From the NCBI RefSeq assembly GCF_964355755.1, contig NC_092675.1:11775812-11839811 (forward strand): a stretch of DNA of 64,000 nt, read 5' to 3'. The notes under the pieces are model-generated. The model saw only the letters and a program-made list of their open reading frames with translations. It ran no database searches and was not told the DNA's origin. Below, one piece after another: positions 1,790 through 50,665 of this stretch. Numbering within the stretch: position 1 is the stretch's first letter; every line of letters starts with the position of its first letter. This DNA comes from Antedon mediterranea. Its lineage: Eukaryota > Animalia > Echinodermata. A program made the translations under genes and the position numbers.

Positions 1790-1790
1790 C

Positions 1791-11640: not shown

Positions 11641-11642
11641 TT

Positions 11643-12120
11643 TTAGTTATCCGCAACGAAGTTGCAGGATAACTCCTAGTGATTGTACGAAATCATCATC
11701 ATCCTCTTTTTTTTAAGTTATCCGCTCATGGCGGATAACTCCTTGTAACTGTCCTGTTTCATCATCTTTTTTTTTTTTTTTTTTAGTTATCCGCAACGAA
11801 GTTGCAGGATAACTCCTTGTGATTGTACAAAATCAATATCTTTTTTTAGTTATCCGCTTAGTAGCGGATAACTCCTTGTGATTGTATTGGATCAATATTT
11901 TTCTTTTTAGTTATCCGCAACGAAGTTGCAGGATAACTCCTAGTGATTGTACGAAATCATCATCCTCTTTTTTTTTAGTTATCCGCATTCACGGATAACT
12001 CCTTGTAACTGTCCTGTTTCATCATCTTTTTTTTTTTTTTTCGGATAACCCTTGTTATTGTCACGTTTCTTTTTGGTTATCCGCACTTGGCGGATAACCC
12101 TTGTTATTGTAAATATCTTT
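11643..12120 (+). repeat. cluster of eight stacked HINE 5' hairpin heads separated by T-tracts
   Basis: The GTTATCCGC...GGATAAC stem recurs every ~35-70 bp with different loops; one head is partial. Confidence 0.9.
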
Positions 12121-13685
12121 TTCTTCTTCATCTTCTTTGTTATTCTTCTTTCTTTCCCGGATTTTTGTGACCAGCATATCTCTATTGCTTGTGAACATAA
12201 CTTTGTATAACTTTGTCAAAAGATTGACCTGTAGCTGTAGATGTGCAAGAAACTTCGTTATATGACGTTAGAGTCGCGCAGCGTAAGTTACGCGCGATTT
12301 TAAGAATTTCAATGATTGGTCATAGATTATAAACCAAAAGTCATTTTTTATTGACACTTGGTGAAAATTTAAGTCATATCAAGGGCGAACTTTCTATGGA
12401 TTAAAAATGGCATGTTTCACAAGAAGTTACGCGCGCACGCGCATTTAAAATTTCAAAATGCGCAAAATTAATTTCTAATCAACTTTCTACGCTGATCATG
12501 ACATTTTGAACATGTGAAAAATTCCCACGCGCGCGAAAAAAATTACGCGTAAGGTGCGCACGGAGCATGAAAATCATGTTTTTTTCTCTTGAATTATGAT
12601 TTTCCAACCTTTCCTAGTCATTTTAAAAAAGATTGACATGATTTGAAATTAAAATGACGTCATACGAACACGTTGATTTATACCATTTTCACGCGTTTTA
12701 GTTGAAAAAGTTACAAAATATTGTCAAAATTATGCCTATCTTTAATCTATTATAGCTCCTCAGGATCATCCACGACCCCCAATTTTTTAAATTTTATATG
12801 TAAGTAGATATGTTGTAGATATGAATTCATGCAGAATCTTTACCCCTCGGATGTTATGACGTCATCGTATGGCCACACGAATGTAAAATATAGAGTTTTT
12901 TACTCTTTCGTTATTGCTCATCACATTAAATAGAGCGCATCTCACTTTTACGTGCCCAAAATTCTTCAAATTTGTTTTAATGTAATTATTTAGATAATTA
13001 TCTTCTAAAATGGTTATCTTTATATGTCAATTTGATGATGTCATCGTGTTAATAATTGGATTAAAAAGATGGGTCTCGTAATTTCGTCTATGCTACACTG
13101 TATATAACATACAGTTTATTCTGTAAAATACTGTAATATGATGTATGCTACATAATAGGTAAGTTGCGGATAACCCTTGTTATTGTAAATATCTTTTTCT
13201 TCATCTTCATCTTCTTTGTTATTCTTCTTTCTTTCCCGGATTTTTGTGTGTCGCATATCCCCTATTGCTTGTGAACATAACTTTGTATAACTTTGTCAAA
13301 AGATTGATCTGTAGCTGTAGATGTGCAAGAAACTTCGTTATATGACGTTAGAGTCGCGCAGTGTATTCTGTAAACACTGTAATATGCTGTATGCTACAAA
13401 ATAGGTACAATTCAGCACTGTAAACATTCTTAATTCATGTCATAGGATGGCATAATAATTGTCGAAGTTCATATAGTTTAAAGTATGTGCATGTTGCGTT
13501 TGCGCGGATAACCCGAACTCGTCAAAGTGACGAGTTCAAATCTAGTTGGTTATCCGCAACTTATAAGTTGCAGGATAACCCTTGTGATTGTAAATATCTT
13601 TTTTCATCTTCTTTGTTATTAGTTATCCGCTTAGTAGCGGATAACTCCTTGTAATCGTCCTGGATCTTTTTTTTTTTTTTCTTTA

Positions 13686-15291
13686 TTAGTTATCCGCTTA
13701 GTAGCGGATAACTCCTTGTAACTGTATGAAATCATCTTTTTTTTTTTTTTTTTTTCTGTATTATTCTTTCTTTCTATCAATTTTGTGTCTCGCGTATCTC
13801 AAAAACTTGTAAACAAAACATTTTATAACTTTGTCAATATGTGGGCATTCACGTGAAATTGTGCACCTCCTATTGTGAATGACGTCAGAATTGCGCAACG
13901 TGATTTACGCGCGTTTTAACGAATTTCGCGTATTTAACATAGATCGAAAACCATATAGCAATTTAAATTGAAACTTAACAAAAGTTTAATTTATATCTTG
14001 CGCTAACTGACTGTCGAAAAAAAATGGCATGTTTCACAAGAAGTTACGCGCGCACAGGCGTTTAAAATTTCAAAATGCGAAAAATCAATTTCTAATCAAC
14101 TTTCTACGCGTTTCATGTCATTTTGAGCATGTCAAAAATTCCCACGCGCGCGCATATTTTTACTCGCACGGTGCGCACGTAGCGTTGAAAATAAATTTTT
14201 TTCGCGTGATTCATGTTTTTCCAGCCTTTTCTAGTAATTTTACCAACTTTTGAACAATTTTGAACTAAAATTACGTCATACGGGCACATCCAATTGGATA
14301 ATTTACGTGCGTTTTTGATGAAAAAGTTCAAAAATTTGTCAAAATTCGTCAAAATTATGCCTTTTTTTAAACATTTATAGATTCTAAACTACGAGGTGAA
14401 CTTTTTTTTAATTATATATTCTGGAAGTTGATGAGTTGTAGATATGGAATCATGCATTAATATGGCTAATCGGACATTATAACGTCATCGTATGGCCACG
14501 CGAATATAAAATATAGGATTTTTATATATTTCGTCATAGCGCATCACATTTAATAGAGCGCATCTCCACTTATCCGTTTTTTATTTTCACCCCGATTTTT
14601 ATATTGTCTAGGTGAATGAACTATCTTTCGCATGAGTTAAAAATATTTTAATTTTTTATGACGTCATCATGTCGAAAATTGTAAATAACGTGGGTCACTT
14701 ATTTTCATCTTTACAGTAAATTTCAATCTGTTATAGCTCATCAGAATAAAAAGTGATAATCATGATTAAAACGTTTTCTGGAAGCTATGGTATTGTAGAT
14801 ACGAATTCATGTAAACACTTTGCCAATCGGATGTTGTGACGTCATCATATGGCCAGTTGAATAAAAAAAAGGCGTATTTCATATTTTGCGTAATAGTTCA
14901 TCACATTTAAAAGGGCGCGCATCTATATTTTACGTATTCAAATTTCTTCTACACGTTAATATATGGTTGCTGAGATAATGTCCTTCCGAAATTGCTATCT
15001 TAGTGTTTCATTTTGATACCGTCGCCATGTTAAAAATAAGAATAAACGGGGGGTCTTGTAATGTCACCTATTCTACACTGTATGTAACATGTATACAGAT
15101 TATACCGTTTGCACTGTATATACTATATGACACAAAATTGACAGAATTCAGCACTAACAGCATATGATATTCTTCAGTTTAGGTCATAATGCCATAATCT
15201 TTTTCCGTGTGCAAAATTCCAACGTATGACGTGCGCGTGGCGTTTGTCGTGCGGATAACTAACTCGTCAAAGTGACGAGTTTCATGTCTAG
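13686..15291 (+). mobile_element. intact HINE copy
   Basis: TTAGTTATCCGC head matches the 3' subterminal GCGGATAACTAA; hairpin and CTAG end present. Confidence 0.85.
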
Positions 15292-15362
15292 TTAGTTATC
15301 CGCACTTGGCGGATAACTCCTTGTGATTGTATGGGATCATCATTTTTTTTTTTTCTGTATTA

Positions 15363-16953
15363 TTAGTTATCCGCACTTGGCGGATAACTCCTTGTTATTG
15401 TATGGGATCAATATTTTTTTCTGTATTATTCTTCTTTCTTTCTCGCTATTTTTGTGTAGAGCGTTTCTCTAAAATGTGTAAACATAACATTTTATAACTT
15501 TGACAACATGTGGGCATTTACGTGAAGTTCTGCACCTCCTATTTTTGAATTACGTCAGAGTTGCGTAACGTGACTTACGCGCGATTTTATGATTTTTTAT
15601 GATTGATCATAGATTAAAAACTAAAAGTGATTTTTAATTGACACTTTGTGAAAGTTTAATTTATATCATGCGCTAACTTTCTGTTTGAAAAAAATTGCGT
15701 GTTTTACACAAAGTTACGCGCGCACGCGCATTTAAAATTTCAAAATGCGCAAAAATAATTTCTAATCAACTTTCTACGCGTTTCATGTCATTTTAAGCAT
15801 GTACAAAATTACCGCGCGCGCGAAAAATATTACGCGCACGGTGCGCATAGAGCATGAAAATCATGTTTTTTTCTCTTGAATTGTGATTTTCCAGCCTTTC
15901 CTAGTCATTTTCAAAAAGATTGACATCATTTCAAATTAAAATGACGTCATACGAACACGTTGATTTAGCCCATTTGCGCGCGTTTTAGTTGAAAAAGTTA
16001 CAAAATGTTGTCAAAATTATGCCTATTTTGAATGTTTTATAGCTTCTCAAGATCAACGATTACCCCTAATTTTTTTAACTTAATATGTAAGCAGATATGT
16101 TGTAGATATGAATTCATGCAGAATTTTTACCTCACGGATGTTGTGACGTCATCATATGGCCACACGAATGTAAAATATAGGATTTTTTTGTCTTTCGTTA
16201 TTGCTCATCACATTCAATGGAGCGCATCACGCTTATACGTATTTCTTTTTCTCCGAGATTTTAATATTGTCTAGGTCAATCAACTATCTTTCGCATGAGA
16301 TAAAAATATTTTAATTTTTATGACGTCATCATGCCTAAAAATTTTAATTACGTGGGTCATTAATTTCATCTTTACAGTAAATTTTAATCTGTAATAGCTC
16401 GTCAAAATAAAATGTGATAATCACGATTAAAACATTTTCTGGAAGCTCTTGGATTGTAGATATGAAATCCTGTGAACATTTTGCCAATCAGATGCTGTGA
16501 CGTCATCATATTGCAAGTTAAATAAAAAAAGTCGTATTTTCATCTTTTGCATCATAGTTCATTATATTTAAAAGAGCGCGCATCAATATTAAACGTATTC
16601 AAATTTCTTCTACACGTTAATATGTTGTTGCTGAGATAATTTGCTTCCGAAATTGCTATCTTAGTGTTTCATCTTGATACCGTCGCCATGTTTTTACAAA
16701 TTTGAATAAATGGCGGGTCCCGTAATTTCACCTATTCTACACTGTATGTAACATGTATACAGATTATACTGTTTGCATGTATATACTATATGACATAAAA
16801 TTGACAGAATTCAGCACTAACAACATATCATATTCTTCAGATCAGGTCATAATGCCATAATTTTTTCTGTGTGCAATATTCTAACGTATGACGTGCACGT
16901 GGCGTTTGTCGTGCGGATAACTAACTCGTCAAAGTGACGAGTTACATGTCTAG
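15363..16953 (+). mobile_element. intact HINE copy inserted into the head of another HINE
   Basis: Removing it restores ctgtatta|ttcttatttctttccttcc, which is seen uninterrupted at ~26680. Confidence 0.88.
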
Positions 16954-19900
16954 TTCTTATTTCTTTCCTTCCATTTTTGTGTAGAGCGTTTCTCTAACAT
17001 GTGTAAACATAACATTTCATAACTTTGAAAACATGTGGGCATTTACGTGAAGTTGTGTACCTCCTATTTTTTAATGACATCAGAGTTGCGCAACGTGACT
17101 TACGCGCGATTTATGATTTGTTATGATTGATCATAGATTAAAAACTAAAAGTGATTTTTAATTGACACTTTGTGAAATTTTAATTTATATCATGCGCTAA
17201 CTTTCTGTTGAAAAAAAATTGCGTGTTTTACACAAAGTTACGCGCGCACGCGCATTTAAAATTTCAAAATGCGCAAAAATAATTTCTAATCAACTTTCTA
17301 CGCGTTTCATGTCATTTTAAGCATGTCAAAAATTACCGCGCGCGCGAAAAATATTACGCGTACGGTGCGCATAGAGCATGAAAATCATGTTTTTTTCTCT
17401 TGAATTGTGATTTTCCAGCCTTTCCTACTCATTTTCAAAAAGATTGACATCATTTCAAATTAAAATTACGTCATACGAACACGTTGATTTAGCCCATTTG
17501 CGCGCGTTTTAGTTGAAAAAGTTACAAAATGTTGTCAAAATTATGCCTATTTTGAATCTTTTATAGCTTCTCAGGATCAACGATTACCCCTAATTTTTTT
17601 AACTTAATATGTAAGCAGATATGTTGTAGATATGAATTCATGCAGAATTTTTACCTCACGGATGTTGTGACGTCATCATATGGCCACACGAATGTAAAAT
17701 ATAGGATTTTATTGTCTTTCGTTATTGCTCATCATATTCAATGGAGCGCATCACGCTTATACGTATTCCTTTTTCTCCGAGATTTTAATATTGTCTAGGT
17801 CAATCAACTATCTTTCGCATGGGATAAAAATATTTTAATTTTTATGACGTCATCATGCCTAAAAATTTTAATTACGTGGGTCATTAATTTCATCTTTACA
17901 GTAAATTTTAATCTGTAATAGCCCTTAAAAATAAAATTTGATAATCACGATTAAAACATTTTCTGGAAGCTATTGGATTGTAGATATGAAATCATGTGAA
18001 AATTTTGCCAATCGGATGTTGTGACGTCATCATATGACCAGTTAAATAAAAAAGTCGTATTTTCATCATTTGCGTCATAATTTATTCCATTTAAAAGAGC
18101 GCGCATCAATATTTTACGTATTTAAATTTCTTCTACACATTAATATGTTGTTGCCGAGATAATTTCCTTCCGAAATTGCTATCTTAGTGTTTCATTTTGA
18201 TACCGTCGCCATGTTAAAAATTGGAATAAATGGCGGGTCCAGTCATTTCACCTATTCTACACTGCATGTAATATGTATACAGATTATATTGTATATACTA
18301 TATGACAAAAAATAACAGAATTCAGCAATAACAACATATCATATTCTTCAGTTCAGGTCATATTGCCATAATCTTTTTCTGTGTGCAATATTCCAACGTA
18401 TGACGTGCACGTGGCGTTTGTCGTGCGGATAACTAACTCGTCAAAGTGACGAGTTACATGTCTAGTATTATTCTTCTTTCTTTCTCCTCCATTTTTGTGT
18501 CTCGCGTATCTCAAAAACTTGTACACATAACATTTCATAACTTTGTCATCATATGGACATTTACGTGAAGTTGTGCACCTCCTATTTTTTAATGACGTCA
18601 GAGTTGCGCAACGTGACTTACGCGCGATTTTATGAATTTCATTGATTGATCATAGGATAAAAAATAAAAGTCCTTTTGTATTGACACTTGGTGAATATTT
18701 AAGTCATATCAAGGGCAAACTTTCTATGGATTAAAAATGGCATGTTTTACAAGAAATTTACGTGCACACGCGCATTTCTCCTCCATTTTTGTGTCTCGCG
18801 TATCTCAAAAACGTGTAAATATAACATTTCATAACTTTTTCAACATATGGGCATTCACGTGAAGTTGTGCACCTCCTATTGTGAATGACCTCAGAAATGC
18901 GCAACGTGACTTACGCGCGATTTTATGAATTTTGCGTATTTAACATAGATTGAAAACCATTTAACAATTTAAATTGAAACTTAGCAAAAGTTTAATTTAT
19001 ATCTTGCGCTAAGTTTTTGTGCACTAAAAATGGCATGTTTTACCCGAAGTTATGCGCGCATGCGCATTTAAAATTTAAAATGCGCAAAATTTATTTCTAA
19101 TCAACTTTCTACGCTGATCATGCCATTTTGAGCATTTCAAAAATTCCCACGCGCGCGAACAATCTTACGCGCGTGGTCCGCAAGTAGCGCTAAAAACATC
19201 TTTTTTGCGTGAATTATGTTTTTTCAGCCTTTTATAGTAATTTTATCAACTTTTAAAACAATTTAGACTTAAAATTACGTCATACGAGCACGTCGAATTG
19301 TACAATTTGTGCGTGTTTTTAATGAAAAAATTCAAAAATTCGTCAAAATTATGCCTTTTTTTAAACAATCATAGATTCTAAACTACGAGGTAAACTTTTT
19401 TTTACTTACATGTTCTGGAAGGTGATGAGTTGTAGATATCGGATCATTAATCAATATGGTTAACCGGACATTGTGACGTCATCGTATGGTCACACGAATG
19501 TAAAATATATGATTTTTGTCTCTTTCATTATTGCTCCTCACATTAAATGGAGCGCATCACCGTTATCTGTATTCCTTTTTCTCCGAGATTTTAATATTGT
19601 CTAGGTCAATCAACTATCTTATGCATGTGTTAAAAATATTTAATTTTTATGACATCATCATGCCTAAAAATTTAAATTAGGTGTTATACTGTGTACTTTA
19701 AAATGTATATACTATATGACACAAAATAGACAGAATTTAGCACTAACAACATATCATATTCTTCAGTTCAGGTCATAATGCCATAATCTTTTTCTGTGTG
19801 CAACATTCCAACGTATGACGTGCACGTGGCGTTTGTCGAGCGGATAACTAACTCGTCAAAGTGACGAGTTTCATGTCTAGTTCTTCTTTCTTTCCCGGAT

Positions 19901-22900
19901 TTTTGTGACCAGCATATCTCTATTACTTGTGAACATAACTTTGTATAACTTGGTAAAAAGATTGACATTGAAGTGTAGATGTGCAGCCAAGCTTTTGGAC
20001 GATGTCATAGCCGCGTTGCGTAAGTTACGCGCAATTTTATGAATTTCTATAACTGATCATAACTATAGAACCAACAAATATTCTTTCATGAACCTTAGTG
20101 AAAATTTAAGTCATATCAAGGGCAAACTTTCTATGGATTAAAAATTGCATGTTTCACAAAAAGTTAAGCGCGCACGCGCATGTAAAATTTCAAAATGCGC
20201 AAAATTAATTTCTAATCAACTTTCTACGCTGATCATAACATTTTGAGCATGTCAAAAATTCCCACGCGCGCGAAAAAAATTACGCGTAAGGTGCGCACGG
20301 AGCATAAAAATCATGTGTTTTTCTCTTGAATTATAATTTTACAGTCTTTCCTAGTCATTTTAAAAAAGATTGACATCATTTCAAATTAAAATGACGTCAT
20401 ACGAACACGTTGATTTAGACAATTTGCGCGCATTTTAGTTGCAAAAGTGACAAAATATTGCCAAAATTATGCCTATTTTTAATCTATTATAGCTCCTCAG
20501 GATCATCCATGACCCCCAATTTTTGTAATTTGATATGTAAGCAGATTTGTTGTAGATATGAATTCATGCAGAATATTTACCCCTCGGATGTTATGACGTC
20601 ATCGTATGGCCACACGAATGTAAAATATAGGATTTTTTACTCTTTCGTTATTGCTCATCACATTAAATAGAGCGCATCTCACTTTTACGTGCCCAAAATT
20701 CTTCAAATTTGTTTTAATGTAATTATTTAGATAATTATCTTCTAAAATTGTTATCTTTATATGTCAATTTGATGACGTCATCGTGTTAATAATTGGATTT
20801 AAAAGATGGGTCTCGTAATTTTGTCTATGCTACACTGTATATAACATATACAGTTTATTCTGTAAAATACTGTAATATGATGTATGCTATATAATAGGTA
20901 CAATTCAGCACTGTAAACATATGTATTTTATGTCATAGGATGGCATAATAATTGTCGAGGTTCATATGGTTAAGTATGTGCATGTTGCGTTTGCGCGGAT
21001 AACCCGAACTCGTGAAAGTGACGAGTTCAAATCTAGTTTTTCTATGTTATTCTTCTTTCTTTCCCAGAATTTTGTGTCACGTGTATCTCAAATTCTGATC
21101 AACATTACATCGTATAACTTTGTCAGAAGATTTACCTCTATCTGTAGAAGTGCAGGACAGCTCGTTTTTTTACTTTAGAGTCGCGCAGCGTAAGCTACGC
21201 GCAATTTTATGAATTTTGCGTATTTAACATAGACTAAAAAGCAAAAGTCATTTTGTAATGACACTTGGTGAACATTTAAGTCATATAATGCGCAAACTTT
21301 CTATGGATTAAAAATCGCATGTTCCACAAAAAGTTACGCGCGCACGCGCGTTTAAAATTTCAAGATGCGAAAAATCAATTTCTAATCAACTTTCTACGCG
21401 TTTCATGTCATTTTGAGCATTTCAAAAATTCCCACGCGTGCGCAATTTTTTTACGCGCGCGTGCGCACGTAGCGCAAAACCATCATTTTTTTGCTTGATT
21501 TTTGTTTTTCCTGTCTTTTTTAGTAAATTTACCAACTTTCAAACAATTTCAACTTAAAATCACGTCATACGAGCACGTAGAATTAAATAATTTACGCGCA
21601 TTTTTGATGAAAAAGTTCAAAAATTTGTCAAAATTATGCCTTTTTTTAAACAGTCATAGATTCTAAACTACGTAGTGAACTTTTTTAAAATTACATATTC
21701 TGAATGTAGATGAGTTGTAGATATCGAATCATGCATCGATTTGGCTAACCGGACATTGTGACGTCATCGTATGGCCACACGAATATCAAATATAGGATTT
21801 TTGTCTCTTTCGTCATAGCTCATCACATTTAATAGAGCGCATCTCCACTTATCCGTATTCCATTTTCCCCCATTTTTATATATTGTCTAGGTCAATCAAT
21901 TATCTTTCGATTGATTCACCATTTTTAAAATTGTTATGACGTCATCATGTCCAAAAGCGTCAATAACTTTGGTCACTTATTTTCACCTTTTCTGCACTGT
22001 ATGTAGTACGTATACAGTATATAGTGTATACCGTATATATTTAGACGTGACACAAAATAGAGGGCGCACTCACATTTTTTTCAATGGCATAATCGTTTTT
22101 CTGCGCGCAATATTTTAACGTATGACGTGCACGTGGCTTTTGCGCTGCGGATAACCTAACTCGTCCGTCAAGAGTTCAAAAATTTTGACCTAAAATTACG
22201 TCATACGGGCACATCCAATTGGATAATTTACGTGCGTTTTTGATGAAAAGGTTAAAAAATGTGTCAAAATTCGTCAAAATTATGCCTTTTTTTAAACATT
22301 CATAGATTCTAAACTACAGTACGAGGTGAACTTTTTTTAAATTATATATTCTGGAAGTTGATGAGTATTAGATATGGAATCATGCATTAATATGGCTAAT
22401 CGGACATTATAACGTCATCGTATGGCCACACGAATATAAAATATAGGATTTTTATATCTTTCATCATAGCTCATCACATTTAATAGAGTGCATCTCCACT
22501 TATTCGTTGTCCATTTTAACCCCGATTTTAATATATTCTAGGTCAATCAACTATCTTTTGCATGAATTCAAAATTTTTTAATTTGTTTAACGTCATCATG
22601 CCTAAAAATTTAAATTACGTTGGTCATTAATTTCATCTTTACAGTAAATTTTAATCTGTTATAGCTCGTAAGAATAAAATGTGATAATCACGATTAAAAC
22701 GTTTTCAGGAAGCTATTGTATTGTAGATACAAAATCATGTGAAAATTGTGCCAATCGAATGTTGTGACGTCATCATATGGCCAGTTAAATAAAAAAAGTC
22801 GTATTTTCATCTTTAAAAGAGCGCGCATCAATATTTCACGTATTCAAATTTCTTCTACACGTTAATATGTTGTTGCTGAGATAATTTCATTCTGAAATTT

Positions 22901-34900: not shown

Positions 34901-35264
34901 GGAGAGACACGAAATAGGGCTCAAACTGTTCAGAAACTATACATTCTTATTTATTATAATGAAATGTTTTTACAAAAAATTGCCGATTCTACAACTATTG
35001 ACCTTTGAACTATTAGTCAAATATAACAATATAAAAATAATATAACTTTGACAATTGTGGTCTTATGAATTTTTTTTTTCTTTTTAAATTGTTTAAAACA
35101 TGTGTGTTTCTATCCAGTCTAATGGCATATTTTGTACAAGAATGGCCGATAGTATGGTTATTGACCTTTTAACTACAGCATAGGCCATTGTATACTAAAT
35201 ATAATATAATTTCATAACTATGAAATTATTTATACACAATAATAATTAGTAAAATAATAAAATT

Positions 35265-35725: not shown

Positions 35726-36262
35726 TGAACATGTTAAGGGCATCAGTTAAGATCATTCATGCAAAGGTTTCCGTCATCTTTAGCGTTGTTACAGCGGCAT
35801 AAAGCTGTACATGGTAGTTTTGACATCTTGCACCTACATCTATTGGTTATGCATCGTGTCTTGCATCCACAATAAATCATCTCTAACGAAGCAGTAGGAA
35901 TAGCTTCATTTTTCAGAAGCACTGGTTGAAGTTTACCATTAGATAGCTCCCAACCAAAATATGTTGGTGATGGCAAGTGCTGGATTGGCGATACAGCTTT
36001 TTTTCCATACGAGTGCTTGGAAGTGTGCTCTTTTTATATGTTGGTGCACGGCATCGCTTGTTGGAGGTAATGCCTCTGGTTTTATTTGGTTAAAAGCCTA
36101 ACTTCATTGGTACTTTTAACTTGACCAACACCGTAAACGTAGCAAATGAATCTTTCCGATTTCATAATAACTTGGTCACTGATAGGTTTTCTCCCAGGTC
36201 TTTAATTTGTTCATACTTTTTTTTTAATACTTCCCATGCCGATGCCTTTGAGTGACCACTTA

Positions 36263-37987: not shown

Positions 37988-37998
37988 TTAGATATGAG

Positions 37999-38053
37999 CA
38001 GTGAAGATTTAAATTACTGTATGTATGTATTAATGTAATTTAACTCTTCCCTG
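37999..38053. mobile_element. 55-bp hAT-like mini element with an 8-bp TSD
   Basis: gatatgag|CAGTGAAGATTTAAATTAC ... GTAATTTAACTCTTCCCTG|gatatgag; 19-bp TIR with 2 mismatches. Confidence 0.8.
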
Positions 38054-41000
38054 GATATGAGTAGTATCGCATCCACTAATAGTGTGGAATGGAATCAGTG
38101 CTTTTGTAGAACCCTCGGGCAAGGCTTGAAAAATGTCTTTTATAGATACTTTCTTTTTTTGGATGTCCCTGTCATCATCCATTTGGATACCATGCTTTGG
38201 TAGTGAGACACTAGAATCACTAGTACGTCTGTATCCCTAGAAGCAACTACAACTGTGTCGTATCGGACATTGGCAGCATGACAAGTCTCGTGTCCGATTC
38301 TTCATGGTCTGCGACCAGAGACAACGTATTCGTGTAGACTTTTGATGATTTAACAACTGATTCTTTCATAAATCCACCAGCTGTGACAATTTCTTTGTCT
38401 ATAGGAGCTTGACGAATCAACTCCTCTGATAGAAATCGTGTCAGATCTGCATTATTATCTTGTAATGCCAAAAAGTTTGACCAGCAATTTGGCAGCGGTA
38501 TTTCACCACTTTCTATAATTCGACGAATTGGTCTCTGTGTTTTGGTTCATCTTTGTCTGGTGGTGTCCTTTATCGACAGTTTTAAGTTAGGCATGCCATG
38601 TTTTAAAAAAACCAGAGCCATTACCTCCAAGAAGCGATGCAGTGCACCAGCATATAAAAAGAGAACACTTCCAAGCACTCGTATTGAAAAAAGCTGTATC
38701 GCCAATCCAGCATTTGCCATCACCAACAGATTTTGGGTGGGAGCTATCTAATGGTAAACTTCAACCAGTGCTTCTGAAAATTGAAGCTATTCCTACTGCT
38801 TCGTTTTAGATGATTTATTGTGGATGCAAGACACGATGCATAACCATATAGATGTAGGTGCAAAAAGTCAAAACTACCATGTACAGCTTTATGCTACTGT
38901 AACAACGCTAAAGATGACGACGGAAACCTTAGCATGGAATGATCAAAACTGATGCCCTTAACATGTTCATTCCAAATGTAGCTTAGGTGTTCACTTTTCT
39001 TTCAAACCTATAGGCCTACAATCATAATCCATCATATTGATGGCAGGTAATTTCCAAATTTCCAAATGTAGCTGACGTGTTCAAATTGTTTTTTAATTCT
39101 ATAATCATAATCAATCATATTGATGGCAGGTACTATACAATCATAATCCATCATATTGATGGCATTTAATTTCCAAATTTCCAAATGTAGCTGACGTGTT
39201 CAAATTCTTTTTAAAATCTATAATCATAATCCATCATATTGATGGCAGGTAATTTTCAAATGTAGCTTATGTGTTCAATTTCTTTTTTAAATCTATAATC
39301 ATAATCCATCATATTGATGGCAGGTAATTTCCAAATGTAGCTGACATGTTCACATTTAAAAAAATCTATAATCATACTCCATTATATTGATGACAGGTAA
39401 TTTCAAATTTCAACAAATGTAACTTGCGTGTTCAATTTTTTTTTTTTTTATCTATATAAATCATAACACATCATATTTGATGGCAGTGAATTTTATAATT
39501 TTACTAATTATTATTGTGTATAAATAATTTCATAGTTATGCAATTATATTATATTCAGTATACAGTAGGCCTATGCTGTAGTTTAAAGGTCAATAACCAT
39601 ACTATCGGCCATTCTTGTACAAAATGTGCCATTAGACTGGATAGAAACACACATGTTTTAAACAATTTAAAAAGAAAAAAAAATTCATAAGACCACAATT
39701 TTCAAAGTTATATTATTATTATATTATTATATTTGACTAATAGTTCAAAGGTCAATAGTTGTAGAATCGGCCATTTTTTGTAAAAACATTTCATTATAAT
39801 AAATAAGAATGTATAGTTTCTGAACAATTTGAGCCCTATTTCGTGTCTCTCCGATTATTGGTTACTGAGATACGATAAATCAAGGTCAAGGGTCAAAATG
39901 TCAGAAATAAGACTTGCATCCATTTTTTGAGAAAATGTGTCATTAAAGTGAATATAAAAACATATATTTAAAACATTCTGACACCAAAATTAATTATCTG
40001 TGACTGGTGGTTCTCGAGATATAGGGTAATTATAAAAAATGGCCGCCATTTTTAATTATGCAAATTAAGGGCTTAGATGGCCGAATTTCGCTTGGGATCC
40101 GCCATATTCGTAATCAGCGAGGTCGAAATATCCTAAATCAAGTGGATCCCAGCTTCTACCCAAAAATGCTTCTTACATCATATTTCAGAGGAAATAGAAC
40201 TTGTCTACTTGTGATTGTACGAAATCATCATCATCTTTTTTTTTAGTTATCCGCATTCAGCGGATAACTCCTTGTAACTGTATGAAATCATCTTTTTTTT
40301 TTTTTTTTCTGTATTATTAGTTATCCGCTTAGTAGCGGATAACTCCTTGTAATCGTCCTGTTCCTTTTTAAGTTGCGGATAACCCTTGTTATTGTCACGT
40401 TTCTTTTTTTATCTTCTTTGTTATTCTTCTTTCTTTCCCAGAATTTTGTGTCACGCATATCTGTCATTCTTGTAAACATAACATTTTATAACTTGGTCAA
40501 TATATGGACATTTACATGAAGTTGTGCACCTCCATATTTTTAATGACGTTAGAGTCGCGCAGCGTAAGTTACGTGCGATTTTATGAATTTCAATGATTGA
40601 TCATAGATTATAAACCAAAAGTCATTTTGTATTGACACTTGGTGAACATTTAAGTCATATCAAGGGCGAACTTTCTATGGATTAAAAATGGCATGTTTCA
40701 CAAGAAGTTACGCGCGCACGCGCATTTAAAATTTTAAAATGCGCAAAATTAATTTCTAATCAACTTTCTACGCTGATCATGACATTTTGAGCCTGTCAAA
40801 AATTACCGCGCGCACAAAATATTTTACGCGCGTGGTGTGCACGTAGCGTTAAAAAACAGATTTTTTGCGTGATTTATGTTTTTTCAGCCTCTTTCTAGTA
40901 ATTTTACCAAGTTTTAAAGAATTTCGACTTAAAATCACGTCATACGAGCACGTTGATTTAGACCATTTGCGCGCATTTCTGTTGAAAAAGTTAGAAAATA

Positions 41001-44000
41001 TTGTCAAAATAATGCCTATTTTGAATCTATTATAGCTCTTTAGGATCAAAGGTGATCCCCAATTTTTTTAACTTATTATGCAAGAAGATAAACTGTAGAT
41101 ATGAACTCATGCAGAATTTTTACCTCTCGGATGTTATGACGTCATCGTATGGCCACACGAATGTAAAAAATAGGATTTTTGTCTATTTCGTTATTGCTCA
41201 TCACATTCAACAAAGCGCATCTCGCTCATACGAATTCCATTTCCCCCAAGATTTATTATTGTCTACGTCAATCAATTATCTTTCGCATGAGTTAAAAATA
41301 TTGTAATTGTTATGACGTCATCATGTCTAAAAATGTAAATAACGTGGGTCACTTATTTTAATCTTTACAGTAAATTTTAATCTGTTATAGCTCGTCTGAA
41401 TAAAAAGTGATATTCATGATTAAAACGTTTTCTGGAAGCTATTGGATTGTAGATACGAAATCATGTGAACATTTTGCCAATCAGATGTTGTGACGTCATC
41501 ATATGGCCAATTGAATAAAAAAGTCGTATTTTCACCTCTTGCGTAAAAGTTCATTGCGTTTAAACGAGAACGCATCTCACTTTTACGTGCCCAAAATTCT
41601 TCAAATTTGTATTAATGTAAATAATTAGAAAATTATCTTCTAAAATTGTTATTTTTATATGTCAATTTGATGATGTCATCGTGTTAATAATTGGATTTAA
41701 AAGATGGGTCCCGTAATTCCGTCTATGCTACACTGTCTATAACATATACAGTGTATTCTGTAAATACTGTAATATGATGTATGCTACAAAATAGGTACAA
41801 TTCAGCACTGTAAACATATTTATTTCATGTCAAAGGATGGCATAATAATTGTCGGCGTTTATATATTTTAAACGTATGTGCATGTTGCGTATGCGCGGAT
41901 AACCCGAACTCGTCAAAGTGACGAGTTCAAATCTAGTTTTTTCTTATTTCTTTCTCCCCCATTTTTGTGTCTCACGTATCTCAAAAACTTGTAAACATAA
42001 CATTTCATAACTTTGTCAACATATGGGCATATACGTGAAGTTGTGCACCTCCTATTTTTGAATGACGTCAGAGTTGCGCAACGTGACTTACGCGCGATTT
42101 TATGATTTTTTATGACTGACCATAGATTAAAAACCAAGCGTAATTTTGTTTTGACACTTTGTGAAAATTTAAGTCATATCAAGTGCAAATTTTCTATGGA
42201 TTAAAAATGGCATGTTTTACAAGAAGTTATGCGCGCACGCGCATTTAAAATTTCAAAATCCGCAAAATTAATTTCTAATCAACTTTCTACGCTGATCATG
42301 ACATTTTGAGCATGTCAAAAATTCCCACGCGCGCGTTAAAATTTACGCGTAAGGGGCGCACGGAGTATGAAAACCATGTTTTTTTTCTTGAATTTTGAGT
42401 GTCCAGCCTTTCGTAGTCATTTTAAACAAGATTGACATCATTTCAAGTTAAAATGACGTCATACGTACACGTTGATTTAGACCATTTGCATGCGTTTTAG
42501 TTGCAAAAGTGACAAAATATTGTCAAAATTATGCCTATTTTGAATCTATTATAGCTCATCAGGATCAAAGGTGACCCCAATTTGTTTTAACTTATTATGC
42601 ATGAAGATAAATTGTAGATATAAATTCATGCAGAATTTTTACCTCTCGGAAGTTATGACGTCATCGTATGGCCACACGAATGTAAAATATAGGATTTTTG
42701 TATCTTTCCTCATAGCTCATCACATTTAATAGAGCGCATCTCCAATTATCTGTTTTCCATTTTCACCCCGATTTTTATATTATCTAGGTCAATCAACTAT
42801 CTTTCACTTGAGTTAAACATATTTTAATTTTTATGACGTCATCATGTCTAAAAATTAAAATAACGTGGGTCATTTATTTTCATCCTTACAGTAAATTTCA
42901 ATCTGTCATAGCTCGTCAAAATAAAACGTGATAATCATGATTAAAACGTTTTCTGGAAGCTATTGGATTGTAGATACGAATTCATGTAAACATTTTTCCA
43001 ATCTGATGTTTTGACGTCATCATATGGCCAGTTGAATAAAAAAAGTCGTATTTTCATATTTTACGTAATAGTTCATCACATTAAAAAGGGCGCGCATCTA
43101 TATTTTACGTACTCAAATTTCTTCTACACGTTAATATGTGGTTGCTGAGATAATGTCCTTCCGAAATTGCTATCTTAGTGTTTCATTTTGATACCGCCGC
43201 CATGTTAAAAATAAGAATAAACGTGGGGTCCCGTAATTTCACCTATTCTACACTGTATGTAACACGTATACAGATTATACTGTTTATACTGTATATACTA
43301 TATGACACAAAATTGACAGAATTCGGCACTAACAGCATATGATATTCTTCAGTTCAGGTCATAATGTCATAATCTTTTTCCTTTTGCAAAATTCCAACGT
43401 ATGACGTGCGCGTGGCGTTTGTCGTGCGGATAACTAACTCGTCAAAGTGACGAGTTACATTTCTAGTTCTTTCTTTCTGTCAATTTTGTGTCTCGCGTAA
43501 CTCAAAAACGTGTAAACATAACATTTTATAACTTTGTCAACATGTGGGTATTCACGTGAAATTGTGCACCTCCTATTGTGAATGACGTCAGAGTTGCACA
43601 ACATAACTTACGCGCGTTTTTATGAATTTCGCGTATTTAACATAGATCAGAAACAATATAACAATTGAAATTAAAACTTAGCAAAAGTTTAAGTTATATC
43701 TTGCGCTAACTGATTGTGAGAAAAAAATGGCATGTTTCACACGAAGTTACGCGCGCACGCGCGTTTAAAATTTCAAAATGCGAAATTTCAATTTCTAATC
43801 AACTTTCTACGCGTTTCATGTCATTTTGAGCATGTAAAAAATTCCCACGCGCGCGCGATTTTTTACGTGATTTATGTTTTTCCAGCCTTGTCTAGTAATT
43901 TTACCAACTTTTTAATATTTTCGACTTCAAATTACGTCATACGGGCACGTCGAATTGGATAATTTACGTGCGTTTTTGATGAAAAATGTCAAAAATTCGT

Positions 44001-46388
44001 CAAATTTAGTCAAAATTATACCTTTTTTTAAACACTTATAGTTTCTAAACTAAACGGTGAAAGTTATTTTTATTGCATATTCTGGAAGTTGATGAGTTAT
44101 AGATATCAGATCATGCATTAATATGGCTAACCGGACATTGTAACGTCATCATATGGCCACCCAAATATAAAATATAGGATTTTTATTTCTTTCGTCATAT
44201 TACATCACATTTAATAGAGCGCATCTCCACTTATCCGTTATCCATTTTCACCCCGATTTTGAAATTTTCTAGGTCAATCAACTATCTTTCGCATGAGTTA
44301 AAAATAATTTAATTTTTATGACGTCATCATGTCTGAAAATGTAAATAACGTGGGTCACTTATTTTCACCTTTACAGTAAATTTCAATCTGTTATAGCGCG
44401 TCAGAATAAAAAGTGATAATCATGGTTAAAACGTTTACTGGCAGCTATTGGATTGTAGATACGAATTTATGTTAACTTTTTGCCAATCAGATGTTTTAAC
44501 GCCATCATATGGGCAGTTGAATATAAAAAGTCGTATTTTCATAATTTCCGTCATAGTTCATCACATTTAAAAGAGCGCGCATCTATATTTTACGTATTCA
44601 AATTTCTTCTACACGGTAATATGTTGTTGCTGAGATAATTTCCTTCCGAAATTACTATCTTAGTTTTTCATTTTGATACCGTCGCCATGTAAAAAATTGG
44701 AATAAATGGCGGGTCCCGTAATTTCACCTATTCTACACTGTATGTAACATGTATGCAGACTATACGGTTTATACTGTATATACTATATGACACAAAATTG
44801 ACAGAATTCAGCAGCACTAAAGAACATATCATATTCTTCAGTTCAGGTCATAATGCCATATTTTTCTCTGTGCAAAAAATCTAACGTATGACGTGCACGC
44901 AGCGTTTGTGGTGCGGATAACTAACTCGTCAAAGTGACGTTTGGAAAAGCCATTGGAAAAGTCACAACTGAAAAGTACTTGAATGCGCAAGATATGTTTT
45001 GTTGCGGGCGGATAACCAAACTCGTCCTCAAGTGACGAGTTTAGATCTAGTTAGTTATCCGCAACGAAGTTGCAGGATAACTCCTTGTGATTGTACGAAA
45101 TCATCATCATCTTTTTTTTCTTTATCTTCTTTCTTTCTGTAAATTTTGTGTCACCCGTATCTGTAAAACTTGCAAAAATAACATTTCGTAACTTTCTCAA
45201 CATATCTTCATTGATATGAAGTTGTGCAGCGAACCTTTTCAGGATGTTTACAATTGCGCAACGTGACTTACGCGCGATTTAACGATTTTCTCGTATTTAA
45301 CATAAGTCAAAAACCAAATAACATTTTAAATTGAAACTTTTCAAAAGTTTAATTTATATCATGCGCTAACTTTCTGTTGAAAAAAAATTGTGTGTTTTAC
45401 ACAAAGTTACGCGCGCACGCGCATTTAAAATTTCAAAATGCGCAAAATTAATTTATAATCAACTTTCTACGCGTTTCATGTCATTTTAAGCATGTCAAAA
45501 ATTCCCACGCGTGCGCAAATTTTTACGTGTGCGGTGCGCACGTAGCGTTGAAAACATAATTTTTTTGCGTGATTTATGTTTTTCCAGCCTTTTCTAGTAA
45601 TTTTACCAACTTTTAAACAATTTCGACTTAAAGTTACGTCATACGAGCACGTCGAATTGGACAATTTGCGCGCGTTTTTGATGAAAAAGTTCAAAAATTC
45701 GTCAAAATTATGCCTTTTTTTAAACAGTCGTAATTTCTAAACTGCACGGTCAACTTTTTGTGGATGACATTTTCTGGATGTTGATGAGTTGTAGATATCG
45801 GATCATGTATTAATATGGCTAACCGGACATTGTGACGTCATCGTGTGGCCACGCGAATATACAATTTAGGATTTTTGTATCTTTCTTCAAAGCTCATCAC
45901 ATTTAATAGAGCGCTTCTCCACTTATTTGTTTTCCATTTTCACCCTGATTTTAATATTGTGTAGGTCAATCAACTATCTTTCGCATGAATTAAATTTTTT
46001 TTTATTTTTGTCACGTCATCATGCCTAAAAATTTAAATTACGTGTGGCATTAATTTCATCTTTACAGTAAATTTTAATCTGTTATAGCTCGTAAGAATAA
46101 AATCTGATAATCACGATTAAAACGTTTTCTAGAAGCTATTTGATTGCAGATAGGAAATCATGTGAAAATTTTGCCAATCGGATGTTGTGACGTCATCATA
46201 TGGCCAGTTAAATAAAAAAAGTCGTATTTTCATCTTTTGCGTCATAATTCATTACATTTAAAAGAGCGCGCATCAATATTTTACGTATTTTAATTTCTTC
46301 TACACATTAATATGTTGTTGCCGAGATAATTTCCTTCCGAAATTGCTACCTTAGTGTTTCATTTTGATACCGTCTCCATGTTAAAAAT

Positions 46389-48725
46389 GGATATTGCTAA
46401 ACACCGCAAACCCCGCAAACCCCCGCAAACCTCCAAAAAAACATAGCAAACCCCATCGAACCAACATAAAAGTGATTGAATCATGTAGTGTACAACCCAC
46501 TGGGTATATCAATGTAAAAAAAAAATTAAATTTCTACTGTTAACAACTTATTTTTGGGGTAAAACATCATTTTTTGGTCAAAAATGATTGGTAAACCCCG
46601 CAAACCTCCAAAAAACCATAGCAAACCCCACCGAACCAACATAAAAGTGATTGAATAATGTAGTGTACAACCCACTGGGTATATAAATTATTAAATTTCT
46701 ACTGTTAACTACTTATTTTTGGGGATAAAACATAATTTTTTGGTTAAAAATTAGCAATCATTTTTGACCAAAAAATGATGTTTTACCCCAAAAATAAGTA
46801 GTTAACGGTATAAATTTAATATTTTTTTTACATGGATATACCCAGTGGGTTGTACACTACATGATTCAATCACTTTTATGTTGGTTCGATGGGGTTTGCT
46901 ATATTTGGTTATCCGCAACGAAGTTGCAGGATAACCTCTTGTGATTGTACGAAATCATCATCAACATCAACTTTTTATTTCTCTTCTTTCTTTCTGTATG
47001 ATTTTTGTGGAACGCTTTTCTCGAAAACTTGCAAACATAACATTTTGTAACTTTCTCAACATATCGTCATGCACATGAAGATGTGCAGCGAAGCTTTTCA
47101 TGATATTTACAATTGCGCAACGTGACCTACGCGCGATTTAACGATTTTGTCGTATTTAACATAGCTCGACAACCAAATAACATTTCAACTTGAAACTTTT
47201 CAAAAGTTTAATTTATATCATGCGCTAACTTTCTGTTGAAAAAAAATTGCGTGTTTTACACAAAGTTACGCGCGCACGCGCATATAAAATTTCAAAATGC
47301 GCAAAATTAATTTATAATCAACTTTCTACGCGTTTCATGTCGTTTTAAGCATGTCAAAAATTCCCACGCGTGCGCACATTTTTACGTGTGCGGTGCGCAC
47401 GTAGCATTGAAAACGTATTTTTTTCGCGTGATTTATGTTGTTCCAGCTTTTTCAAGTAATTTTACCAAATTTTAAACAATTTCGACTTAAAGATACGTCA
47501 TACGAGCACGTCGAATTGGACAATTGGCGCGCGTTTTTTATGAAAAGGTTAAAAAATTCGTTTAAAATATGCCTTTTTTTAAACAGTTGTAATTTCTAAA
47601 CTAGACGGTCAACTTTTTGTGGATGGCGTATTCTGGAAGTAGATGAGTTGTAGATATCGAATCAGGTAGTAATATGGCTAACTGGACATTGTGACGTCAT
47701 CGTATGGCCACACGAATATAAAATTTAGGATTTTTGTATCTTTCGTCATAGCTCATCACATTGAATAGAGCGCATCTCCACTTATCCGTTTTCCATTTTC
47801 ACCCCGATTTTGATATTGTCTAGGTCAATCAAGTATCTTTCGCATGAGTTAAAAATATTTTAATTTTTTTGACGTCATCATGCCTAAAAATTTAAATCAC
47901 GTGTGGCATTAATTTCATCTTTACAGTAAATTTTAATCTGTTATAGCTCGTAAGAATAAAATGTGATAATCACGATTAAAACTTTTTCTGGAAGCTATTG
48001 GATTGTAGATACGAAATTATGTAAAAATGTTGCCAATCGGATGTTGTGACGTCATCATATGGCTAGTTAAACAAAAAAGGTCGTATTTTCATCTTTTGCG
48101 TCATAATTCATTACATTTAAAAGAGTGCGCATCAATATTTCACGTATTCAAATTTCTTCTACACGCTAATACGTTGTTGCTGAGATAATTTCCTTTCGGA
48201 ATTGCTACCTTCGCGTTTCATTTTAAAACCGTCAACATGTTAAAAATTGCAATAAATAGCGGGTCCCGTAATTTCACCTATTCTACACTGTATGTGATAT
48301 GGATACAGATACTGTGTATACTATATATGAATTTAAATAATAAAATTCAGCAATAACAACATATCATATTCTTCAGTTCAGGTCATAATGCCAACGTGAA
48401 CACTTCCTTTTGTCCTCAACCTATCCTCTTAATGTTTATGTTGCACCACTTGCGCGGCGGATAACCAAACTCGTCAAAGTGACGAGTTACATGTCTAGTT
48501 TTTTTTAGGTTTGCAGGGTTTAGCAATCATTTTTGACCAAAAAATGATGTTTTACCCCAAAAATAATTAGTTAACAGTAAAAATGTATTATTTTTTTTAC
48601 ATGGATATACCCAGTGGGTTGTACACTACATGATTCAATCACTTTTATGTTGGTTCGATGGGGTTTGCTATGTTTTTTTGGAGGTTTGCGGGGGTTTGCG
48701 GGGTTTGCGGTGTTTAGCAATACCC
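46389..48725. mobile_element. foldback-type Mutator-like (MULE) non-autonomous element with a 9-bp TSD, itself interrupted by a HINE
   Basis: gttaaaaat|GGATATTGCTAAACACCGCAAACCCCGC ... GCGGGGTTTGCGGTGTTTAGCAATACCC|gttaaaaat; interior made of two direct and two inverted ~170-bp units. Confidence 0.85.
46905..48498 (+). mobile_element. intact HINE (TTGGTTATCCGC/GCGGATAACCAA subfamily) inserted in the MULE
   Basis: Near-identical to 60299-61895 and to the body at 29784-31308; inserted in a T-run. Confidence 0.88.
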
Positions 48726-50665
48726 GTTAAAAATTGAAATAAATGGCGGGTCCCGTAATTTCACCTATTCTACACTGTATATAATATATATACAGATTAT
48801 ACTGTTTTTACTATATACTATATGACACAAAATTGACAGAATTCAGCACTAACAACTATTATCATGTTCATCAGTTCAGGTCATAATGCCATAATCTTTT
48901 TCTGTGTGGAATATTCCAACGTATGACGTGCACGTGGCGTTTGTCGTGCGGATAACTAACTCGTCAAAGTGACGAGTTACATGTCTATTCTTTATCTTCT
49001 TTCTTTCTGTAAATTTTGTGTCACCCGTATCTGTAAAACTTGCAAACATAACATTTCGTAACTTTCTCAACATATCTTCATTCATATGAAGTTGTGCAGC
49101 GAACCTTTTCAGGATGTTTACAATTGCGCAACGTGACTTACGCGCGATTTAACGATTTTCTCGTATTTAACATAGGTCAAAAACCAAATAACATTTTAAA
49201 TTGAAACTTTTCAAAAGTTTAATTTATATCATGTGCTAACTTTCTGTTGAAAAAAAATTGCGTGTTTTACACAAAGTTACGCGCGCACGCGCATTTAAAA
49301 TTTCAAAATGCGCAAAATTAATTTATAATCAACTTTCTACGCGTTTCATGTCATTTTAAGCATGTCAAAAATTCCCACGCGTGTGCAAATTTTAACGTGT
49401 GCGGTGCGCACGTAGCGTTGAAAACATAATTCTTTCGCGTGATTTATGTTTTTCCAGCCTTTTCTAGTAATTTTACCAACTTTTAAACAATTTCGACTTA
49501 AAGTTACGTCATACGAGCACGTCGAATTGGACAATTTGCGCGCGTTTTTGATGAAAAAGTTCAAAAATTCGTCAAAATTATGCCTTTTTTTAAACAGTCG
49601 TAATTTCTAAACTGCACGGTCAACTTTTTGTGGATGACATTTTCTGGAAGTTGATGAGTTGTAGATATCAGATCATGTATTAATATGGCTAACCGGACAT
49701 TGTGACGTCATCGTGTGGCCACGCGAATATACAATTTAGGATTTTTGTATCTTTCTTCATAGCTCATCACATTTAATAGAGCGCTTCTTCACTTATTCGT
49801 TTTCCCGATTTTAATATTGTGTAGGTCAATCAACTATCTTTCGCATGAATTAAATTTTTTTTAATTTTTGTCACGTCATTATGCCTAAAAATTTAAATTA
49901 CGTGTGGCATTAATTTCATCTTTACAGTAAATTTTAATCTGTTATAGCTCGTAAGAATAAAATGTGATAATCACGATTAAAACGTTTTCTAGAAGCTATT
50001 TGATTGCAGATAGGAAATCATGTGAAAATTTTGCCAATCGGATGTTTTGACGTCATCATATGGCCAGTTAAATAAAAAAAGTCGTATTTTCATCTTTTGC
50101 GTCATAATTCATTACATTTAAAAGAGCGCGCATCAATATTTTACGTATTTTAATTTCTTCTACACATTAATAGGTTGTTGCCGAGATAATTTCCTTCCGA
50201 AATTGCTACCTTAGTGTTTCATTTTGATACCGTCTCCATGTTAAAAATTGAAATAAATGGCGGGTCCCGTAATTTCACCTATTCTACACTGTATATAATA
50301 TATATACAGATTATACTGTTTGTACTATATACTATATGACTCAAAATTGACAGAATTCAGCACTAACAACTATTATCATATTCATCAGTTCAGGTCATAA
50401 TGCCATAATCTTTTTCTGTGTGGAATATTCCAACGTATGACGTGCACGTGGCGTTTGTCGTGCGGATAACTAACTCGTCAAAGTGACGAGTTACATGTCT
50501 AGTTCGTTGTAGTATTGAGCTGGGTTTTGGCATGAACATACTACAGGGACATGTCCTCAAAGCTATAGAGCCGGATTTTTAATTTTTTGTTAATTAATTT
50601 GTTTAATTAAGGAGCCACAATGTGTGACACACACCACAGCGTTATGTAGTTATATGGTTATATGC

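What the first reader, a model, noticed from the sequence alone, without database searches (positions are those of the whole stretch)
11643..50502. Self-targeting Russian-doll stack of Helentron-type elements that closes in last-in-first-out order
Seen: this is not a simple tandem array. Several 5' heads are stacked, one full element follows, and after each CTAG the sequence resumes in the headless body of the previous element. Heads 13546/13619/13686 close in reverse at 15291, 19880 and 21036. The body after 21036 matches the partial head at 12042 (the same join is seen uninterrupted at ~40375-40450). Heads 34500/40245/40317/40370 close at 41936, 43466, 45050 and 50502. Known: HINE/DINE-1-like elements have subterminal inverted repeats, a 3' hairpin, T-rich targets and no TSD. 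Inference: this family prefers the T-rich tract ~40-70 bp inside its own 5' end, always in the same orientation, so each insertion supplies a new target and the pile grows by positive feedback while recording insertion order. Not every level parses (the body after 25160 does not fit head 23243).
Basis: partly seen in the sequence, partly recalled or inferred. Interest (0 to 1): 0.85.

Follow-up and report, generated by a model that had tools for sequence, protein, structure and literature searches.

The report
Transposons stacked inside each other's heads
About 25 small non-coding elements with the end structure of rolling-circle transposons sit one inside another, all facing the same way, each likely having jumped into a short T-rich patch just behind an earlier copy's start; most levels pair up like nested brackets, but some starts look copied or have lost their partners, and a similar self-insertion habit was already proposed for fungal relatives.

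Summary
The structure is real. The block holds 26 heads and 21 closing tails of a ~1.5-kb non-coding element with HINE (non-autonomous Helentron/HLE2) geometry, all on the + strand. A second stack starts at 60096. Last-in-first-out (LIFO) pairing beats chance: the predicted head is the best open head for 9 of 13 headless bodies (2.5 expected, P=7.5e-5). Of 20 in-element insertions, 19 lie 23-48 nt behind the head hairpin, a zone with 7-26% of the element's T-sites. Seven further heads abut a tail with zero gap.

Two double-head junctions are copies of each other, four heads never close, three bodies misfit, and depth does not track divergence (rho -0.12). The order record is therefore partial. 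Orientation is forced by the T^T target and is not separate evidence.

Self-insertion and double-headed composites were proposed for Fusarium Helitron2 (Chellapan 2016). This scan noted the same pattern before on other genomes (8 notes). No autonomous partner, whole genome or long reads were available.

The parts
11643..12072 (+). Stack of 6 full heads (11643, 11714, 11783, 11846, 11907, 11975) and 1 partial head (12042). 11643+11714 is a near copy of 11907+11975. The first four never close under strict LIFO.
12073..13545 (+). Innermost short-type element, with a partial head plus 200 bp at 13160-13365 (likely a deletion junction between two copies)
13546..13685 (+). Heads 13546 and 13619; same junction as 23243+23316
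13686..15291 (+). Intact element
15292..16953 (+). Head 15292 (zero gap after tail) with intact element 15363-16953 inside it
16954..18465 (+). Body resuming head 15292 (seamless join; 99.4% identical to body 26667)
18466..19880 (+). Body resuming head 13619 (internal ~300-bp duplication shared with element 23316)
19881..21036 (+). Body resuming head 13546 (seamless join)
21037..22174 (+). Body resuming partial head 12042; tail cut in its hairpin
22175..23192 (+). Body lacking its first ~500 bp (deletion junction at 22174/22175); head not assignable
23193..25160 (+). Heads 23193 and 23243 with intact element 23316-25160
25161..26666 (+). Body that does not fit head 23243 (rank 17-18 of 19)
26667..28198 (+). 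Body with poor LIFO fit; best open head is 11846
28199..29784 (+). Intact element, zero gap after tail
29785..31308 (+). Body 98% identical to elements 46905 and 60299; its exact head type occurs as a split head only at 60096, outside this block
31309..34499 (+). Head 31309, intact element 31365-32954, resumed body 32955-34499
34500..40242 (+). Head 34500 split by a foreign foldback element
34536..40207 (.). Foreign 5.7-kb element with long terminal inverted repeats and a 3-bp target duplication. It contains a 1.7-kb TIR element at 36263-37987 with a TTA duplication (PIF/Harbinger-like; label recalled).
40243..45050 (+). Heads 40243 and 40317, element with partial head 40370-41936, bodies 41937-43466 and 43467-44939, then ~70 foreign bases and a different tail ending 45050
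45051..48988 (+). Element 45051 (zero gap after tail), split by a foreign TIR element 46389-48725 with a 9-bp duplication (Mutator-like; label recalled) that itself holds intact element 46905-48498
48989..50502 (+). Body resuming head 34500 (score 0.98; 98.4% identical to element 45051)
60096..64000 (+). Second stack, outside the finding: heads 60096, 60169, 60235, intact element 60299-61895, bodies 61896-63421 and 63422 onward, both fitting LIFO; runs off the window
10164..11642 (-). Non-LTR retrotransposon reverse-transcriptase frame (492 aa open, RVT_1 E=8e-37) ending exactly at the first head; a multi-copy contig matches it at 932 of 935 nt
527..1790 (-). Old, decayed copy of the same family (~66-72% identity), the only one on the minus strand

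Best explanation
This is a nested pile of small non-coding elements with Helentron-type ends, likely built by rolling-circle copies inserting again and again into the T-rich tract just behind a resident copy's start hairpin or exactly at a resident copy's end, and then likely edited by copying of double-headed units and by deletions. Shown: end geometry, nesting order at most levels, the 23-48 nt target zone, zero-gap tail-to-head joins, and duplicated head pairs. Inferred: (1) an HLE2 RepHel encoded elsewhere moves the elements as single-stranded circles and joins them into T^T on one strand, which fixes orientation; (2) the bias to the head zone arises because the strong head hairpin (-12 kcal/mol) and the enzyme's own subTIR site expose or tether the adjoining T-tract, while the element ends are the enzyme's natural nick sites; (3) each arrival brings a fresh target, so the pile feeds itself; (4) starting at an outer head and stopping at the first tail yields multi-headed composites and orphan heads, while read-through or recombination between neighbours yields orphan bodies. 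Several subfamilies (69-99% identical) were probably active together and recently.
For: Geometry matches HINE: subTIR 2-3 nt from the 5' end, partner 40-43 nt and hairpin 11-12 nt from the 3' end, T after 22 of 22 tails, no duplication beyond T (against passages). LIFO tests; at the 5 positions where first-in-first-out differs, LIFO scores higher in 5 of 5. Excision restores joins seen intact elsewhere in the window. The head zone holds 6.6-25.7% of + strand TT to TTTTT sites in 6 intact elements yet takes 19 of 20 insertions (P<=9e-11; P<=1e-5 if only 11 events are independent and 10 hit). 7 of 7 tail-adjacent heads have gap 0 although 8-23 TT sites remain beside each resumed tail. Duplicated double-head junctions. 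Public contigs show head-to-head and tail-to-headless-body joins that differ from this block's own, some at ~8-15 times single-copy depth, and both tail join types as loose ends in the second sample. Helraiser nicks single-stranded DNA precisely at both ends, forms head-to-tail circles and bypasses the 3' end (passages). The composite model is in Chellapan 2016, section 16.
Against: 4 of 13 bodies do not take the LIFO head as best open head. Four heads are unclosed, and the right flank is not the continuation of the cut retrotransposon (in-frame stop 18 codons away), so a large deletion or other rearrangement must be assumed. No depth-divergence trend (rho -0.12, p=0.58, n=23; child less diverged than parent in 6 of 12). 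Target distances spread over 23-48 nt (23-42 after capping T-runs), so there is no sharp ruler. The T-site null was computed within elements only, not genome-wide. No autonomous partner was found (no genome held). No listed contig bridges this block's own junctions (tables cut). Helraiser is an HLE1 enzyme, so its chemistry is borrowed.
Confidence: 0.72

Rival explanations
1. Passive T-tract targeting: the elements simply prefer long poly-T/pyrimidine tracts, the best one happens to sit behind their own head, and no recognition of self is involved.
For: HINEs target T-rich DNA. The head zone has the longest T-runs (1-15 TTTTT sites per element). Three insertions went into unrelated T-containing sites (11643, 46905, 60096). 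Orientation needs no self-recognition.
Against: Heads with short tracts are hit too (distances 23, 24, 26, 30 nt). Bodies hold 13-25 TTTTT sites each and take at most 1 of 20 insertions. The zero-gap tail-to-head joins (7 of 7) are not predicted.
Confidence: 0.13
2. Copying did most of the work: a few founder nests were multiplied as composites or by unequal recombination and gene conversion in the array, so depth overstates the number of insertions.
For: Two duplicated head pairs, bodies 16954 and 26667 at 99.4%, mosaic bodies whose nearest neighbour changes along their length, one head-to-head join at ~15 times single-copy depth, 124-bp periodicity in the first head stack.
Against: Most parent-child pairs belong to different subfamilies (71-90% identity in 10 of 12 pairs) and cut at different places. 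LIFO still holds without same-subfamily nests (6 of 10, P=0.005). The founders would still need self-insertion.
Confidence: 0.1
3. Assembly artefact: similar repeat copies were strung together by the assembler.
For: No contig or read spanning the block's junctions was seen.
Against: Copies are mostly far apart in sequence (median 82%). Mis-joins would not give LIFO order, exact T^T joins, or foreign elements with intact target duplications. The same join classes occur in contigs.
Confidence: 0.05

Closest known systems
HINE / DINE-1 non-autonomous Helentrons (Thomas, Vadnagara and Pritham 2014, PMC4067079; passages read)
   Same: Palindromic 5' subTIR near the end, 3' subTIR ~40 nt from the end, 3' stem-loop, TT target, no target duplication, variable T at the ends, no coding capacity. 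[quoted passage not shown]
   Different: The passages read do not describe a hot spot behind the element's own head or deep nests. This family ends in CTAG+T and has no central tandem repeats (no period <=500 array in the bodies).
FoHeli Helitron2 elements of Fusarium oxysporum (Chellapan et al. 2016, PMC5148889; section 16 read whole, other passages)
   Same: Multiple 5' termini (first 31-85 nt repeated), proposed self-insertion, composites made from the leftmost head and the first tail.
   Different: There the nest was inferred from orphan heads and one nested case. Here the displaced bodies are present and pair in reverse order, about 7 scored or counted levels deep below the four unclosed heads, and the target zone can be measured.
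HelenXT233 HLE2 of Xenopus (HELIANO, PMC11417382; passages read)
   Same: Two non-identical left termini in direct repeat, each marking a subfamily.
   Different: A single double head on an autonomous element; no stack.
Tandem TE dimers by insertion-site preference (McGurk and Barbash 2018, PMC5932611; abstract and outline only)
   Same: Repeated insertion at a preferred site makes tandem arrays that can seed satellites.
   Different: Those are side-by-side dimers; here the target lies inside the element, so heads and bodies separate.
Cg_HINE of Pacific oyster (PMC7492417; passages read)
   Same: subTIR plus IR, microsatellite behind the left end, TT target.
   Different: They carry internal satellite arrays; in the passages read, insertion into other repeats is noted but not self-stacking.

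Membership tests
HINE (non-autonomous Helentron/HLE2) | 5' subTIR 2-4 nt from the end, palindromic or with a short IR | tested here: met
   27 full heads; 3 of 3 folded heads give a 10-15 bp stem, -11.7 to -12.8 kcal/mol
HINE (non-autonomous Helentron/HLE2) | 3' subTIR 38-60 nt and stem-loop 8-35 nt from the 3' end | tested here: met
   40-43 nt and 11-12 nt in 22 of 22 full tails
HINE (non-autonomous Helentron/HLE2) | subTIR length 11-15 bp | tested here: inconclusive
   The invariant shared core is 9 bp; a longer imperfect repeat was not measured
HINE (non-autonomous Helentron/HLE2) | Insertion in TT, no target-site duplication | tested here: met
   T follows 22 of 22 tails, TT 18 of 22. In 11 closed pairs the only duplications are T runs and one TA
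HINE (non-autonomous Helentron/HLE2) | No coding capacity | tested here: met
   Longest stop-free stretch 80-93 aa in 4 of 4 elements tested; no ORF of 120 aa or more in the block
HINE (non-autonomous Helentron/HLE2) | Ends shared with an autonomous RepHel-encoding HLE2 partner | not testable with these tools
   No genome held; pattern scans of metagenome and viral contigs found 0
Canonical Helitron (HLE1) | 5' TC start, A^T target, no TIRs | tested here: not met
   Starts TTAG/TTGG/TAAG and has inverted repeats; only the 3' hairpin plus CTAG is shared
Rolling-circle tandem concatemer or satellite | Adjacent units near-identical, complete or 3'-truncated | tested here: not met
   Median pairwise identity 82%; units lack 5' ends, not 3' ends

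The most novel reading that the evidence does not exclude
The HLE2 transposase picks targets by its own binding site. Both target classes lie just downstream of the same subTIR motif on the same strand (23-48 nt behind the head copy, 31-34 nt behind the tail copy, the latter being the natural end cut). One rule then makes every copy a docking site, builds tens-of-kb satellite-like blocks from many subfamilies in a short time, and launches multi-headed composites as new elements.
Probability: 0.3. Interest if true: 0.7.

Novelty: new variant of a known kind. Interest (0 to 1): 0.45.

Why it matters
How rolling-circle transposons choose targets is largely open, and no HLE2 enzyme appeared as biochemically tested in the papers read here. 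A measurable hot spot behind the element's own hairpin, plus exact end-to-end joins, gives a testable rule. It also offers a route from dispersed transposon to a 39-kb satellite-like array without identical-unit amplification, and it warns that repeat annotation will miscall such blocks as tandem repeats with truncated copies. The idea itself is not new (fungal Helitron2, 2016), and this scan has noted it on several other genomes, so the value here is depth, a second stack as replicate, and evidence that the order record is edited by copying.

Tried and rejected
Inner-younger test: nearest-neighbour identity and private substitutions against depth showed no trend; within-window neighbours are a weak clock. 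Assigning body 22175 to a head by similarity: top five matches lie within 88-89%, uninformative. Closing the stack in the retrotransposon: the right flank does not continue it; a protein search for relatives that would show the upstream residues was still queued at the last ask, so this rests on translation alone. Finding other loci: 0 matches in metagenome contigs (two patterns) and viral contigs (one pattern). Multi-copy status of the 23243+23316 junction: no listed contig bridges it. Zero cover at 11546-11631 in two runs proves nothing. First-in-first-out pairing rejected. A simple satellite or single-circle concatemer rejected. Orientation as evidence of self-recognition rejected. The rebuilt head 34500 was off by a few bases and corrected. 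A maize Helitron paper recalled from memory as reporting clustering was not held, so nothing rests on it. Literature searches listed no paper that measures a hot spot behind the HLE2 head or deep LIFO stacks; subscription papers are mostly not covered, and the supplementary files of Chellapan 2016 (Table S6, multiple termini) were not opened and may bear on novelty.

Full report
Setting. The window is AT-rich eukaryotic DNA (GC about 33%), probably animal (inferred from gene structure and repeat types). Three exons at 4285-5154 hit Pfam Saf4_Yju2 (profile positions 1-172). A further exon-like frame at about 55166-55304 had no Pfam hit, so placing the block in a ~50-kb intron is an inference. 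No whole genome is held.

Observation. A motif scan found 27 full heads (T[TA][AG]G, subTIR, loop, inverted subTIR) and 22 full tails (subTIR, hairpin, CTAG). I added 3 partial heads and 2 truncated tails by hand. All lie on the + strand; the only minus-strand relative is a decayed copy at 527-1790. The block 11643-50502 has 26 heads and 21 closing tails. A second stack of four heads starts at 60096 and runs off the window. Foreign transposons with their own target duplications make up 16.5% of the block.

Is the order last-in-first-out? I used the uninterrupted elements as a key from head type to body type. Strict LIFO pairing of 13 headless bodies scored 8.42 against 3.64+-0.92; 0 of 200,000 random pairings and 1 of 200,000 permutations of the assigned heads reached it. 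With a second score (rejoin head and body, compare with intact 5' ends), the LIFO head was the best head open at that point in 9 of 13 cases (expected 2.5, P=7.5e-5), and 6 of 10 after removing three nests of a subfamily in itself (P=0.005). Where first-in-first-out differs, LIFO won 5 of 5. Excision restores joins seen intact elsewhere. The misses are bodies 25161, 26667 and 29785, plus 18466 under the second score only. Body 22175 lacks its 5' end and was not scored. Heads 11643-11846 never close, and the right flank does not continue the retrotransposon frame cut at 11642.

Where do copies land? Of the 30 heads, 19 sit 23-48 nt (median 37) behind the inverted subTIR of another head. Seven follow a tail with zero gap. 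Three are in unrelated repeats, and one (13160) is probably a deletion junction. In 6 intact elements the head zone holds 6.6-25.7% of + strand TT to TTTTT sites, so 19 of 20 is far beyond T-content (P<=9e-11; P<=1e-5 for 10 of 11 if many are not independent). The zero-gap class is also non-random: 8-23 TT sites remain beside each resumed tail, yet no tail is followed by a piece of tract and then a head. Whether such a sibling landed after a resident tail or before a resident head cannot be told, so sibling order is not recorded. Orientation is not separate evidence, because a T^T target on one strand fixes it.

The record is edited. Heads 13546+13619 and 23243+23316 are identical for over 60 nt across the junction, and their inner bodies share a ~300-bp internal duplication. 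Heads 11643+11714 and 11907+11975 share variants absent from other heads of that type. Bodies 16954 and 26667 are 99.4% identical, and body 29785 is 98% identical to elements whose head type is not open in this stack. A deletion is evident at 22174/22175. Orphan heads are what an element starting at an outer head and ending at the first tail would leave (Chellapan 2016, section 16). Orphan bodies could come from 3'-end bypass (Grabundzija 2016, PMC4778049, passages) or from recombination between neighbours; I cannot separate these. Depth does not track divergence (rho -0.12, p=0.58; private changes rho 0.13, p=0.55; n=23). The cut retrotransposon matches a multi-copy contig at 932 of 935 nt, which suggests that the locus is young and that several subfamilies were active together.

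Outside evidence. Five runs hold a nearby unique stretch; four are one sample that may be the source of the assembly. I laid 4 of the 5 (three of that sample, one other). Long contigs put single-copy depth near 20, 300 and 50 in X2, X3 and X5. Against that, a head-to-head join not present in this stretch stands at depth 4725 in X3, head 11846 joins a body directly at depth 929 in X2, and tail-to-headless-body joins stand at 2509 in X3. In X1, loose ends show a body start after the tail (2 contigs) and another head type after the tail (3 contigs). The tool warns that depth is no copy number; the tables are cut and no listed contig bridges this block's own junctions, so the assembly is plausible but unverified. 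Pattern scans of metagenome and viral contigs found nothing.

Mechanism. Shown: geometry, nesting, target zone, zero-gap joins, copied head pairs. From known biochemistry of an HLE1 enzyme: nicking only of single-stranded DNA, precise cuts at both ends, head-to-tail circles, 3'-end bypass. Inferred: an HLE2 RepHel acting in trans integrates circles at T^T; the head hairpin (-12 kcal/mol) and subTIR expose or tether the neighbouring tract; ends serve as targets because they are nick sites. I put 0.72 on this account, 0.13 on passive T-targeting, 0.10 on copying as the main builder and 0.05 on artefact. The sharper claim, that targets are measured from the enzyme's binding site, gets 0.3 because distances spread over 23-48 nt.

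Comparison and novelty. The element meets the HINE features that can be tested here (against PMC4067079); the autonomous partner could not be sought. Multiple 5' termini and self-insertion are in print for Fusarium Helitron2, a double left end for a Xenopus HLE2, and adjacent unrelated Helitrons for bat and maize. My searches listed no paper that measures this hot spot or shows deep reverse-order closure. The scan's own notes report the same pattern in 8 findings on other genomes (unchecked), and none for this sequence or genome. Verdict: real, a new variant of a known kind, interest 0.45.

Noticed in passing
window 60096-64000: Second independent stack of the same family; both scored bodies fit LIFO; it continues beyond the window.
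   Followed up: yes
window 10164-11642 (-): Young non-LTR retrotransposon with a 492-aa open reverse-transcriptase frame, cut exactly at the first head; its upstream part is not found on the far side of the block.
   Followed up: partly
window 13160, 40370, 12042, 22174, 44939: Partial heads and truncated tails break in or near hairpin loops or stems, hinting at hairpin-linked breakage or alternative nicking.
   Followed up: no
window 31190-31308, 48380-48498, 61777-61895, 44940-45050: One subfamily carries a swapped ~80-bp segment before the tail, and another copy has a second tail joined on: 3' ends are exchanged between lineages.
   Followed up: partly
window 34536-40207: 5.7-kb foldback element with long inverted arms, internal 75-bp tandem arrays and a 3-bp target duplication, holding a nested 1.7-kb TIR element.
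   Followed up: partly
window 46389-48725: TIR element with a 9-bp target duplication splitting element 45051 and itself hosting element 46905.
   Followed up: partly
window 1791-2804: 368-bp tandem repeat (2.8 copies), each with a tRNA-Thr-like sequence (two called by ARAGORN, third degenerate); a tRNA-Val call at 50666-50738 lies 164 bp past the block's end.
   Followed up: no
window 4285-5154 and ~55166-55304: Saf4/Yju2-family gene whose next exon may lie ~50 kb downstream, which would put the whole block in one intron.
   Followed up: partly
window 2795-4129, 7905-8781, 57101-57417, 59675-60088: Fragments of another dispersed repeat family; the second stack is inserted in one of them.
   Followed up: no
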